A stretch of 9,660 nt of DNA from a virus (lineage: Duplodnaviria; Heunggongvirae; Uroviricota; Caudoviricetes), in IMG/VR virus record IMGVR_UViG_2529292829_000015, one strand, 5' to 3'. The first letter of the stretch is position 1; every line of letters begins with the position of its first letter. The notes below the pieces were generated by a model. The model ran no database searches, was not told the origin of the DNA, and worked only from the letters and a program-made list of their open reading frames with translations. Of the stretch, positions 8,992 to 9,660 are shown piece by piece. A program made the translations under genes and the position numbers.

Positions 8992-9336
8992 ATGTCAGAT
9001 TTGGCTATGAAGATTTTGAAATGGCAATCGACTGGCGATGTCGGCATCAGTAGCGCAACTCTTGCCTCAATCGCATGTGGACTGAAAAAGAATATCTATG
9101 GTCATCACTTCGGCGCTCCACATGATGCAGCCGATTTCCGGCGATGCGTTGCACTTGTTGAGCAGATTCCAGAAATCAGAGATTCATTCGACAAGGTTGC
9201 AAAGCGCGTTCCGGCATTCAAAGGAATCCTCAACGAATGGGATTCACTCGTTGCTCTGTTGAAGTCTGAAATGAAGACGTACGGGAACAAAGCACCAGAG
9301 ACTTACAGAAGAATCAGCGAGCTACGCAAGGACTAA
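8992..9336 (+). CDS. Hypothetical protein, 114 aa, no recognisable family
   Basis: ATG at 8992 preceded by GGAG with ~7-nt spacer, TAA at 9334-9336, followed by two consecutive terminator-like hairpins. Soluble-looking with no obvious motif. Confidence 0.6.
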   Translation: MSDLAMKILKWQSTGDVGISSATLASIACGLKKNIYGHHFGAPHDAADFRRCVALVEQIPEIRDSFDKVAKRVPAFKGILNEWDSLVALLKSEMKTYGNKAPETYRRISELRKD

Positions 9337-9339
9337 CCC

Positions 9340-9370
9340 GCCTCACACTCGATGAGGCATTTTCATTTAT
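9340..9370 (+). terminator. Rho-independent terminator candidate (GCCTCA-7 nt loop-TGAGGC, then ATTTTCATTTAT)
   Basis: 6-bp perfect stem at 9340-9345 / 9353-9358, 4 nt after the stop of the 114-aa gene, followed by a U-rich tract. Confidence 0.5.
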
Positions 9371-9392
9371 CAAGATATCCAGACCTACCATC

Positions 9393-9417
9393 GCCGCATC
9401 AATGCGGTTTTTTTATT
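9393..9417 (+). terminator. Second terminator-like hairpin (CCGCA-TCAA-TGCGG) followed by a T7 run
   Basis: 5-bp stem (6 with a G-U pair) at 9394-9398 / 9403-9407, then TTTTTTT ATT. Lies immediately upstream of the 16-bp tRNA-derived repeat. Confidence 0.4.
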
Positions 9418-9424
9418 ACCTGAT

Positions 9425-9440
9425 TTGCAGGTTCGATTCC
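9425..9440 (+). repeat. 16-bp direct repeat, copy 2 (TTGCAGGTTCGATTCC); candidate att-core remnant or recombination junction
   Basis: Exact copy of argW positions 46-61 (window 1054-1069). Not part of a foldable tRNA here, and the adjacent sequence does not continue into the tRNA 3' end. Confidence 0.8.
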
Positions 9441-9459
9441 CTATTCGGAGATAGCACTC

Positions 9460-9660
9460 ATGCAACACGAACTACAGCCTGATTCCCTGGTTGATTTGAA
9501 ATTCATCATGGCCGATACTGGCTTCGGTAAAACCTTCATCTATGACCGGATTAAGTCCGGCGACCTGCCAAAAGCCAAAGTTATCCACGGGCGAGCAAGA
9601 TGGTTATATCGTGACCATTGTGAATTCAAGAATAAGCTTTTAAGCCGCGTCAATGGGTAA
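9460..9660 (+). CDS. torI: AlpA/Xis-family winged-helix recombination directionality factor (TorI-like excisionase)
   Basis: 66-aa ORF, ATG 9460 with GGAG 9 nt upstream, TAA at 9658-9660 (the window ends at the stop). The pattern L...DTGFGKTFIYDRIKSGDLPKAKV...RARWLYRD fits AlpA-family HTH proteins. Size and argW/intS context fit KplE1 TorI; the gene symbol rests on context and recollection and is not verified. Confidence 0.7.
   Translation: MQHELQPDSLVDLKFIMADTGFGKTFIYDRIKSGDLPKAKVIHGRARWLYRDHCEFKNKLLSRVNG

What the first reader, a model, noticed from the sequence alone, without database searches (positions are those of the whole stretch)
9425..9440. Exact 16-bp copy of the argW T-arm 8.4 kb downstream, between tandem terminators and the excisionase-like gene
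TTGCAGGTTCGATTCC occurs at 1054-1069 inside the tRNA and again at 9425-9440. An exact 16-mer match in a 9.7-kb window is very unlikely by chance. tRNA-targeting integrases leave identity blocks like this at att sites, but a canonical attR should also carry the tRNA 3' end (CTGCAGGGGACACCA), and that is absent here: the second copy is followed by CTATTCGG. The repeat is therefore either an unusually short internal core, a relic of a second or older integration event, or an internal junction of a mosaic element. Its position directly upstream of the excisionase-like gene and after two terminators also suggests it could overlap the RDF promoter or operator.
Basis: seen in the sequence. Interest (0 to 1): 0.62.

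Follow-up and report, generated by a model that had tools for sequence, protein, structure and literature searches.

The report
tRNA-like box upstream of torI
The repeated 16-mer is real, but it is not the prophage's attachment site (that lies just past the window's end); it is the E. coli form of a short tRNA-T-arm-like box kept in front of the excisionase gene in many enterobacterial argW prophages, probably a control site for excisionase expression.

Summary
TTGCAGGTTCGATTCC occurs exactly twice, in argW (1054-1069) and 20 nt upstream of torI (9425-9440), against about 0.01 expected by chance.

The att-site reading is refuted.
- The window stops at the torI stop codon. The canonical attR core CTGCAGGGGACACCAT lies 74 nt further on in the source strain, in K-12 and in every relative examined.
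- 911 of 5,426 complete E. coli genomes carry the empty site joined at that core. None carries a junction formed at the 16-mer.
- Published in vitro excision uses an attR fragment that excludes the 16-mer.

What is there is a conserved 14-nt box, CAGGTTCGATTYCC. It sits about 9 nt upstream of the RDF ribosome-binding site in Escherichia, Citrobacter, Enterobacter, Pantoea, Serratia, Edwardsiella and Salmonella phage g341c. Its flanks are unconserved and it is tandemly duplicated in some lineages. It lies at the left edge of the exchangeable torI-attP-intS cassette, next to a truncated P22-type xis. It contains the published TorI-binding pentamer GTTCG and duplicates the tRNA segment next to the crossover.

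Most likely it is an operator-type site through which TorI and/or IntS gate torI expression. That step is inferred, not shown. Novelty and interest are modest.

The parts
1009..1083 (+). argW, tRNA-Arg(CCT), the integration target
   Evidence: ARAGORN; annotated as tRNA-Arg between yfdC and dsdC in genomes with the empty site
1054..1069 (+). 16-mer copy 1, the T-arm of argW (5' T-stem GCAGG, T-loop TTCGATT, first CC of the 3' stem)
1069..1084 (+). attL core CTGCAGGGGACACCAT, the published 16-nt KplE1 core. It abuts copy 1 and shares C1069. The inferred 7-bp overlap is TGCAGGG (1070-1076)
   Evidence: PMC2951348; PMC8787464; inverted repeat GGTGTC-TGCAGGG-GACACC in g341c and Erwinia phage 49
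1090..1180 (+). P' arm with the five TorI sites: I1 1090-1097, I2 1110-1117, I3 1153-1160, I4 1163-1170, I5 1173-1180
   Evidence: coordinates; spacing (12 nt, 2 nt) and pentamers GTTCG/GTCCG/GATCG match PMC2951348
1200..1244 (.). IntS arm-type sites (GGGTAAAA, GGATAAAA, and 2 x TTTTACCC inverted) overlapping PintS
   Evidence: HK620 attP repeat annotation; conserved GGGTAAAA in P arms
1245..2402 (+). intS, a heterobivalent tyrosine integrase
   Evidence: Pfam Arm-DNA-bind_3 + Phage_int_M + Phage_integrase; 98.7% identical to the CUS-3 and HK633 integrases
9342..9389 (+). remnant of a P22-type xis (codons 6-21, LTLDEAFSFIKISRPT); mosaic joint at its 3' end. It contains the first 'terminator' hairpin, 9340-9358
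9393..9415 (+). intrinsic-terminator-like hairpin (9393-9408) plus T-tract; the shared cassette sequence begins in its 3' half
   Evidence: homology breakpoints at query 405 (window 9404) and comparison of leaders
9425..9440 (+). 16-mer copy 2 (the finding)
9428..9441 (+). conserved leader box CAGGTTCGATTCCC (consensus CAGGTTCGATTYCC; invariant core GTTCGATT). It contains the TorI-type pentamer GTTCG at 9431-9435 and the attB left half-site GATTCC
   Evidence: cross-genus conservation and information profile; tandem copies in L127, L130, L131, L134; g341c; TorI-site comparison
9446..9449 (+). Shine-Dalgarno GGAG of torI
   Evidence: conserved about 9 nt after TTCGAT in most lineages
9460..9660 (+). 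torI, the recombination directionality factor (excisionase). The window ends at its stop codon. The attR P arm and core follow at window-equivalent 9661-9749
   Evidence: annotated torI; PDB 1Z4H 'Tor inhibition protein', E=2.5e-42; attR core at L001 3735-3750, window-equivalent 9734-9749

Best explanation
The second 16-mer is not a recombination site. It is the E. coli-lineage form of a 14-nt cis element (CAGGTTCGATTYCC, invariant core GTTCGATT) that belongs to the exchangeable torI-attP-intS recombination cassette of argW-targeting phages and prophages (KplE1, HK620, Sf6, CUS-3, g341c and relatives). It lies in the torI leader, between an intrinsic terminator and the ribosome-binding site. 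Its sequence reproduces the T-arm of argW, the stretch of attB immediately left of the 7-bp crossover region, and it contains the pentamer GTTCG that defines TorI-binding sites. The proposed mechanism is that the box is an operator-type protein-binding site. Through it the cassette's own DNA-binding proteins hold down or fine-tune torI expression from read-through transcription, so that excision is not triggered by leaky RDF synthesis. TorI (negative autoregulation via GTTCG) is the most likely binder. IntS, through core-type recognition of its attB-like half-site, is possible as well or instead. Shown: the repeat; its position; the true att sites; conservation and duplication of the box; its dispensability for the recombination reaction itself. 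Inferred: that a protein binds it, which protein, and the regulatory outcome. The extra 5' TTG that brings the identity to 16 nt is lineage-specific and is probably residual homology to a longer tRNA-derived ancestor.
For: Not an att site. The canonical core CTGCAGGGGACACCAT is 77 nt after the RDF stop codon in the source strain, in K-12, in HK620 attP and in all 34 RDF variants examined. 911 of 5,426 E. coli genomes have the empty site at that core and 0 of 5,426 have a 16-mer junction. The published 135-bp attR that supports in vitro excision begins about 197 bp downstream of the 16-mer. Kapi1, Sf6, HK620 and KplE1 share that attP. Functional element. The box is present at about -30 from the ATG in Escherichia, Enterobacter, Citrobacter, Pantoea, Serratia and Edwardsiella (TorI 74-85% identical), while the flanks are unalignable. 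The information profile shows a sharp block CAGGTTCGATTYCC with flanks near zero, and the same method recovers the known arm-type site and core in the P arm. It is retained in g341c, where the RDF is 51% and IntS 61% identical and the arm-type sites differ. Independent tandem duplications occur in L127, L130, L131 and L134. Lineages lacking it carry other leader motifs, for example a 29-bp palindrome, which marks this as a regulatory slot. Link to TorI and IntS. TorI sites are 8-mers built on GTTCG/GATCG/GTCCG, and TorI bound at I3-5 represses PintS. 23 P'-arm sites give yAGTTCG(C/T). The box equals the attB sequence abutting the inferred overlap TGCAGGG, which is flanked by GGTGTC/GACACC half-sites. 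IntS is heterobivalent. Left-edge position next to a truncated P22-type xis in two independent joints.
Against: There is no binding or expression data for this box, and PtorI was described as uncharacterised. The box is not a typical TorI site. All 23 P'-arm sites have a pyrimidine after GTTCG, whereas the box always has A, and the invariant ATT and YCC extension is not a feature of attL sites. E. coli has a single copy, whereas TorI sites act in phased arrays, and the tandem copies elsewhere are spaced 13-16 nt rather than 10 or 20. As an IntS site it is only a lone half-site, and the part nearest the would-be cleavage point is the least conserved (GATTCC against GATTTCC). Several lineages do without the box (L016, L017, L022, L024 type), so it is not essential. 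Within-E. coli polymorphism is too low to show constraint. The constant spacing of about 9 nt to the SD could instead point to an RNA or translational role.
Confidence: 0.5

Rival explanations
1. RNA-level leader element. In the read-through torI mRNA the box (CAGGUUCGAUUYCC) acts in cis. Either its UUYCC pairs with the SD GGAG(AU) to limit translation, or it forms a T-arm-like hairpin that affects mRNA stability or processing.
For: Spacing to the SD is nearly constant (about 9 nt). UUYCC is complementary to GGAG. The predicted probability that the SD is unpaired is low in many lineages, 0.00-0.30. Edwardsiella and Serratia versions form a T-arm-like hairpin (GACAGG-UUCGAUUC-CCUGUC; CAGG/CCUG), and E. 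coli, Citrobacter and L156 have a CCUG...CAGG hairpin with one G-C to U-A change.
Against: Fold energies are no better than shuffled controls (z from -1.4 to +1.1). The predicted structures differ between lineages. In Edwardsiella the SD is free (P unpaired 0.86). The E. coli anti-SD helix is only 4 bp. The most invariant positions (GGUUCGAUU) are not those that pair with the SD. Tandem duplication of the whole unit fits a binding site better. No Rfam family matches.
Confidence: 0.2
2. Non-functional relic. A fragment of argW captured by an ancestral cassette, for example from a longer attP identity block or an aberrant excision, and simply inherited.
For: The box is 13 of 14 identical to the T-arm of the very tRNA the cassette targets. 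Different lineages keep different extra flanking matches to the tRNA (E. coli TTG on the 5' side; Serratia and Pantoea TG on the 3' side; a T-arm-like stem in Edwardsiella), as expected from decay of a longer tRNA-derived ancestor. In non-E. coli lineages the P arm next to the core also reads TTCGATGTA, which resembles the T-loop. Some lineages have lost the box.
Against: The flanking leader is randomised across lineages while GGTTCGATT is invariant, at the same level as the known arm-type sites. The box survives in g341c despite 49% RDF divergence. It has been duplicated independently at least twice. A tRNA origin is compatible with later exaptation, so this rival concerns function only.
Confidence: 0.12
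3. cII-activated PI-type promoter, as annotated in the HK620 GenBank record: a cII box (ATTGCCTGATTTG) whose second TTGC is the start of the 16-mer, driving 'phage integration' transcription.
For: The HK620 record AF335538 annotates 'promoter: phage integration' and 'cII protein' binding exactly here. HK620 and CUS-3 read TTGC-CTGAT-TTGC. TTTTTATTGCCTG is fairly widespread after the terminator.
Against: The spacing is N5, not the canonical N6 (lambda cII consensus, from established knowledge). The window and K-12 have TTAC in place of the first TTGC. Other genera lack the second TTGC (TCCAGG, GACAGG) yet keep the box. No sigma-70 -10/-35 pair is found. A promoter upstream of torI would make RDF together with Int, which is wrong for integration. 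The annotation predates the recognition of hkaC as the RDF.
Confidence: 0.06
4. The 16-mer is an att core, either the true prophage boundary (as annotated for CUS-3) or a secondary or older core still used by IntS.
For: It is an exact direct repeat with one copy in the target tRNA. The CUS-3 GenBank record labels exactly this 16-mer 'attL core' and 'attR core'.
Against: See the best explanation: 0 of 5,426 genomes have a 16-mer junction against 911 empty sites at the canonical core. Chromosomes carrying the CUS-3 right end continue into torI and then CTGCAGGGGACACCAT and dsdC. HK620 virion DNA has torI between the 16-mer and the attP core. There is no inverted-repeat core architecture and no arm-type site within 9250-9660. 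It is not needed in vitro. Recombination there would destroy argW, because the 3' end would not be restored.
Confidence: 0.02

Closest known systems
att core of the KplE1/HK620/Sf6/CUS-3/Kapi1 recombination module (CTGCAGGGGACACCAT, 3' end of argW)
   Same: Both are 16-nt direct repeats of argW sequence with one copy in the tRNA and one at the torI end of the prophage. In the tRNA the two blocks are contiguous (1054-1069 and 1069-1084).
   Different: The canonical core flanks the whole element including torI, restores the tRNA, has inverted half-sites around a 7-bp spacer and adjacent arm-type sites, and is the junction in 911 empty sites. The 16-mer has none of these properties and is never a junction.
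TorI (RDF) binding sites I1-I5 on KplE1 attL, through which TorI represses PintS (Panis et al. 2010, PMC2951348)
   Same: It contains the defining pentamer GTTCG with a purine before it, in the same orientation, within the same cassette. It lies just upstream of a recombination gene whose expression must be tightly limited.
   Different: It has A instead of a pyrimidine after the pentamer and a conserved ATTYCC extension. It is a single copy in E. coli rather than a phased array. Binding has not been tested.
Autoregulating RDFs that double as transcriptional repressors (P2 Cox, 186 Apl; from established knowledge, not tested here)
   Same: This is the proposed logic: an excisionase binding near its own gene to limit its own synthesis.
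   Different: Cox and Apl act at characterised early promoters. Here no promoter is identifiable at the site, and torI appears to depend on read-through of an upstream terminator.
Lambda PI / cII-activated integration promoter (the HK620 record's annotation)
   Same: Its position next to the int/xis genes, and a TTGC repeat in the HK620 and CUS-3 sequences.
   Different: The spacing is wrong (N5), it is not conserved in the window, in K-12 or in other genera, there is no -10 element, and it lies upstream of the RDF rather than inside it.
tRNA-derived identity blocks in the attP of tRNA-targeting integrases
   Same: The sequence is homologous to the T-arm of the target tRNA.
   Different: It is separated from the real identity block by the RDF gene and the P arm (about 295 bp), it is not at the crossover, and only its central 8-9 nt are maintained.

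Membership tests
att core (attR) of a tyrosine-integrase prophage | The same sequence bounds the whole mobile element, and excision leaves one copy at the empty site | tested here: not met
   Empty sites in 911 of 5,426 genomes are joined at CTGCAGGGGACACCAT; 0 of 5,426 have the junction expected from the 16-mer. torI, a cassette gene, lies outside the 16-mer-bounded interval.
att core (attR) of a tyrosine-integrase prophage | Inverted core-type half-sites around a 6-8 bp overlap, with arm-type sites nearby | tested here: not met
   GATGTC-TGCAGGG-GACACC is present only at the canonical core. There is no arm-type site (GGGTAAAA or its inverse) in 9250-9660.
att core (attR) of a tyrosine-integrase prophage | Required in the recombination substrate | tested here: not met
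   The published 135-bp attR (primers attR-IHF2 and attR-XbaI) supports in vitro excision. It maps to K-12 locus positions 2297 onward, while the 16-mer is at 2085-2100. This rests on the literature plus mapping, not on an experiment of mine.
TorI (RDF) binding site | Pentamer GTTCG, GATCG or GTCCG (mutating it abolishes TorI action) | tested here: met
   GTTCG at 9431-9435; definition from PMC2951348; invariant in every lineage that has the box.
TorI (RDF) binding site | Flanking preferences of known sites: A (or G) at -1 and a pyrimidine at +1 | tested here: not met
   Among 23 P'-arm sites, position -1 is A in 16, C in 5 and G in 2, and position +1 is C in 16 and T in 7, never A. The box has G or A at -1 but always A at +1.
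TorI (RDF) binding site | Arrays of two or more direct repeats with helical phasing (10 or 20 bp) | tested here: inconclusive
   E. coli has a single copy. Tandem direct copies occur in L127, L011 (13-nt period) and L130, L131, L134 (16-nt period).
TorI (RDF) binding site | Demonstrated binding by TorI | not testable with these tools
   This needs EMSA or footprinting. No paper in the searchable library prints or discusses the sequence.
tRNA gene or pseudogene | Cloverleaf, or at least contiguous homology beyond one arm | tested here: not met
   ARAGORN finds only argW. Identity stops sharply at both ends of the 16-mer. There is no tRNA hit in Rfam at E of 10 or below.
cII-activated promoter (lambda PRE/PI type) | TTGC-N6-TTGC straddling a weak -35, with a -10 about 13 nt downstream | tested here: not met
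   HK620 and CUS-3 have N5. The window and K-12 have TTAC. Other genera lack the second TTGC. No promoter-like site is found in 9200-9660.
KplE1-type recombination cassette (xis-attP-int order, argW target) | intS next to attL; torI next to attR; 16-nt core at the argW 3' end; GGGTAAAA arm sites; five TorI sites in the P' arm | tested here: met
   attR itself lies outside the window but is present in the 100%-identical source genome.

The most novel reading that the evidence does not exclude
The cassette deliberately carries a decoy copy of its chromosomal target's T-arm (the attB left half-site) in the leader of its excisionase gene. TorI and/or IntS would bind both the leader box and the identical T-loop sequence in argW (attB/attL). 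That would couple RDF synthesis to the occupancy state of the recombination proteins. It would also imply a previously unmapped RDF or Int contact on the tRNA side of the att site, for example TorI on the T-loop blocking re-integration.
Probability: 0.2. Interest if true: 0.6.

Novelty: new member of a known kind. Interest (0 to 1): 0.35.

Why it matters
There are three practical consequences and one scientific one.

1. The repeat is a trap for prophage-boundary calling. The CUS-3 GenBank record uses it as the att core and so omits torI and the real attR. Many automated prophage calls, and this window, stop at torI.

2. The published attL-KpnI primer ends in this 16-mer, so it has a second perfect 3' target upstream of torI.

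3. The F404 deletion shows how loss of torI together with half the core can lock such prophages in place.

Scientifically, control of torI is the acknowledged gap in the otherwise well-dissected KplE1 system: PtorI was called 'non-characterised', and excision is governed by RDF supply. A sharply conserved 14-nt box between the terminator and the ribosome-binding site, containing a TorI pentamer and mimicking attB, gives a concrete and easily mutable candidate for that control.

Tried and rejected
1. I first thought the exact abutment of the 16-mer (1054-1069) and the core (1069-1084) in the tRNA meant that a 31-nt tRNA block had been split by insertion of torI. I rejected this as a general feature. 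In Serratia, Pantoea and Edwardsiella the leader box matches the T-arm past C1069 (…GATTCCTG), so there is no special breakpoint there.

2. Recombination or deletion between the two 16-mers: no genome shows it.

3. Consistent RNA structure: folds are not significant and are heterogeneous.

4. Sigma-70 promoter: none found. I also found no convincing leaderless-mRNA or alternative-sigma reading by eye.

5. Constraint within E. coli: 82 haplotypes are too similar to tell.

6. Generalisation to modules aimed at other targets. I sampled IntS-family phage integrases at 29-39% identity (VW-6S, Acba_16, CF126a, Va_p41, Tyrion, RcMaeve, YeP6). Only Acba_16 has the xis-attP-int order, and none has a T-loop-like copy upstream of an RDF. 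The sample is too small and too distant to settle the question.

7. Protein-word search for distant TorI relatives reached only 60% identity or above, all argW-type.

8. The Menouni 2013 (PMC3761637) and King 2007 (PMC1951898) papers are not held, so I could not check whether a torI transcription start or the CUS-3 junction mapping is reported there.

9. An inverted AGTTCG inside torI codons 3-5 (9468-9472, minus strand) looked like a partner site, but it is E. coli-specific and within the background density of about 2 per kb.

10. The weak Rfam hits (isrK, ncS025; E=1.5) over the xis remnant and terminator are far below threshold.

Full report
**Observation**

The pattern TTGCAGGTTCGATTCC occurs exactly twice in the window, at 1054-1069 and 9425-9440, both on the + strand. 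There are no extra hits even with two mismatches, and the chance expectation is 0.01.

The first copy lies in tRNA-Arg(CCT), 1009-1083. It spans the end of the variable loop, the 5' T-stem, the T-loop and two bases of the 3' T-stem. The second copy is followed by CTATTCGG, the SD GGAG (9446-9449) and the ATG of a 66-codon gene at 9460.

**Where the window comes from and where the real attR is**

The last 661 bases match E. coli 027_SK3 at 100%, and the final gene is annotated torI. The protein is the 'Tor inhibition protein' of PDB 1Z4H. The gene after argW encodes a heterobivalent tyrosine integrase, IntS.

The window is therefore an argW prophage remnant of the KplE1/HK620 type, about 8.65 kb long. 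It carries intS, gtrA, gtrB, a further glycosyltransferase-like gene, a tailspike gene, an Arc/Mnt gene, two hypothetical genes and torI.

The window ends at the torI stop codon. In the source genome the sequence continues for 74 nt and then reads CTGCAGGGGACACCAT, followed by dsdC. K-12 does the same. This is the published 16-nt KplE1 core (PMC2951348) and the attP of HK620, Sf6 and Kapi1, which lies between xis and int (PMC8787464; HK620 record). No copy of this core other than the one in argW exists in the window.

**Direct tests of the att-core reading**

- I built the junction expected if the two 16-mers recombined (argW up to 1069 joined to 9441 onward). I also built the empty site expected from the canonical core (argW through 1084 joined to the dsdC flank).
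- Among 5,426 complete E. coli genomes, none has the first junction and 911 have the second, some at 100% identity.
- The published in vitro excision assay uses a 135-bp attR whose upstream primer lies in the last codons of torI, about 197 bp downstream of the 16-mer (PMC3509656; mapping).
- There are no arm-type sites and no inverted core architecture around 9425-9440.
- The canonical core region reads GATGTC-TGCAGGG-GACACC here, and the perfect inverted repeat GGTGTC-TGCAGGG-GACACC in phage g341c and Erwinia phage 49. From this I infer a 7-bp overlap TGCAGGG.

The GenBank record of phage CUS-3 labels exactly this 16-mer as 'attL core' and 'attR core' and ends there. Chromosomes with an identical CUS-3 right end continue into torI, the canonical core and dsdC. 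So that annotation stops one gene short.

**What the sequence is**

I retrieved TorI relatives through the protein, not through the motif. The sources were one genome per species (24 loci) and IMG/VR. This gave 93-100 distinct leaders.

A box CAGGTTCGATT(C/T)CC lies about 30 nt before the ATG in these groups, where TorI is 74-85% identical:
- Escherichia
- Enterobacter
- Citrobacter-type lineages
- Pantoea
- Serratia
- Edwardsiella

An information-content profile over 14 genuine lineage representatives (85% identity or less to each other; a fifteenth match was spurious) shows a sharply bounded block with flanks near zero. The same procedure on the 77-nt P arm recovers the known arm-type site GGGTAAAA, the core and its adjacent half-site.

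The TTG that extends the E. coli match to 16 nt is not general. Others read TTC-CAGG, GA-CAGG or CA-CAGG. Conversely, Serratia and Pantoea match the tRNA further on the 3' side (GATTCCTG), and Edwardsiella has a complete T-arm-like hairpin. The abutment of the 16-mer with the core at C1069, which I noticed early, is therefore not a general feature.

Three lineage groups carry tandem direct copies of the box: L130, L131 and L134 with period 16, and L127 and L011 with period 13.

Salmonella phage g341c has a strongly diverged cassette (IntS 61%, RDF 51% identical, different arm-type sites) that still targets argW. It keeps AAGTTCGATTCCC in the same place.

Lineages without the box include the L024/L161 type, L166-174, L017, L022, and L016, where it is deleted. 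They have other leader motifs, including a 29-bp palindrome, and retain ordinary GTTCG sites in the P' arm. The box is thus a selected but replaceable regulatory-slot element.

**Mosaic context**

Window 9342-9389 encodes LTLDEAFSFIKISRPT, codons 6-21 of a P22-type Xis, after which the homology to P22 stops. K-12 has the same remnant with a stop codon, and g341c is cut at codon 18, only 9 nt before the box.

The first 'terminator' of the finding (9340-9358) lies inside this dead gene. The second (9393-9408 plus T-tract) is terminator-like, and sequence shared among E. coli cassettes begins in its 3' half. The box is the first conserved feature at the left edge of the exchangeable torI-attP-intS cassette.

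**Mechanism**

The literature defines TorI sites on attL as five 8-nt units built on GTTCG, GATCG or GTCCG, and shows that TorI bound to I3-5 represses PintS (PMC2951348). I located these in the window at 1090-1180 with the published spacings.

The box contains GTTCG preceded by a purine, in the same orientation. It also duplicates the attB sequence immediately left of the inferred overlap, where the integrase's left core-type contact should be. A 13-nt identity between a conserved element and the T-arm of the very tRNA that is targeted cannot be coincidence. It means common descent from tRNA sequence, shared recognition, or both.

I therefore favour an operator-type site through which TorI and/or IntS limit torI expression from read-through transcription.

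Against a simple TorI site:
- All 23 P'-arm sites from five lineages have a pyrimidine after the pentamer, whereas the box always has A.
- The box has a conserved ATTYCC extension.
- E. coli has only one copy.

Against an IntS site:
- It is only a lone half-site.
- Its core-proximal part is the least conserved.

RNA-level models were tested by folding twelve leaders. Energies are not better than shuffles (z from -1.4 to +1.1) and topologies differ, although the SD is often weakly paired with UUYCC.

The cII-box and integration-promoter annotation in the HK620 record is not supported. The spacing is N5, the first TTGC is TTAC in the window and in K-12, other genera lack the second TTGC, and no promoter is detected.

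My confidence is about 0.97 that the 16-mer is not an att site, about 0.85 that the box is a selected functional element, and about 0.5 that it is a protein operator for TorI and/or IntS.

**Comparison with what is known, and novelty**

The cassette itself is a textbook member of the KplE1 family. No paper in the searchable library prints the sequence, and PtorI was described as uncharacterised. Two potentially relevant papers were not available.

I sampled seven distant IntS-family phage modules to see whether leader copies of a target T-arm are a general design. Only one shares the gene order and none has such a copy, so the question stays open.

I rate this a new member of a known kind: a cis-regulatory site within a well-studied recombination module. 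Interest is modest. The more novel reading is given a probability of about 0.2. In that reading the box is a deliberate attB decoy, and the tRNA T-loop itself is contacted by the RDF or the integrase.

Noticed in passing
window 9342-9389 (hairpin 9340-9358): A truncated P22-type xis (codons 6-21, LTLDEAFSFIKISRPT) is fused to the torI cassette. The first 'terminator' of the finding lies inside it. K-12 has the same remnant with an in-frame stop, and g341c is cut at codon 18.
   Followed up: yes
L003 3013-3052 (E. coli F404, NZ_OY754364): A deletion joins …TTGCAGGTTCGATTCCctattcgg directly to ACACCATcc…, at a GGA microhomology. It removes torI, the P arm and the left half of the attR core, so this prophage should be unable to excise.
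   Followed up: partly
CP000711.1 positions 1-16 and 40192-40207 (L005, L004); L243 1194-1520: The CUS-3 GenBank record annotates the 16-mer as the attL and attR core and ends 20 nt before torI. Chromosomes with the identical right end continue into torI, the canonical core and dsdC.
   Followed up: yes
L006 1522-1560 (HK620, AF335538): The depositors annotated a cII-binding site and a 'phage integration' promoter over the start of the 16-mer. The TTGC repeat has N5 spacing and is not conserved outside HK620/CUS-type sequences.
   Followed up: yes
window 1049-1069 and 9425-9440: The published primer attL-KpnI (…GCTAATTGCAGGTTCGATTCC, PMC3509656) ends in the 16-mer, so it has a second perfect 16-nt 3' match upstream of torI. 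This is a possible source of extra PCR products.
   Followed up: no
L001 3727-3756; L240 1119-1137; L241 1112-1130: The attR/attP core region is an inverted repeat around a 7-bp spacer: GATGTC-TGCAGGG-GACACC in E. coli, and the perfect GGTGTC-TGCAGGG-GACACC in g341c and Erwinia phage 49. This suggests the overlap is TGCAGGG and that the tRNA's GATTCC is the weak B half-site.
   Followed up: partly
P arm, about 25-35 nt 5' of the core (for example L001 3710-3722): A conserved block CAAtCcCcTGc sits in the 77-nt P arm of all lineages, besides the arm-type site GGGTAAAA. Its role is unknown to me.
   Followed up: no
IMG/VR loci of length 901 or 892 (for example L034, L035, L038): Many automated prophage predictions end exactly 3 nt after the torI stop codon, as this window does. 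They miss the P arm and the attR core.
   Followed up: no
L014 (Actinomycetes MAG) and L029 (Parachlamydiaceae MAG): Enterobacterial-type torI cassettes with the leader box sit on short contigs binned into unrelated phyla. This is probably contamination or mis-binning.
   Followed up: no
window 9468-9472 (minus strand): An inverted AGTTCG lies inside torI codons 3-5, 37 bp from the leader pentamer, flanking the SD and ATG. It is E. coli-specific and within background density, so it is probably fortuitous.
   Followed up: partly
leaders of L024, L026, L161-L165: TorI lineages lacking the T-arm-like box carry a 29-bp palindrome (CCTGTGAAGTGACAGCGTCATGTCACAGG) in the same slot. This suggests a different, dimeric regulator of RDF expression.
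   Followed up: no
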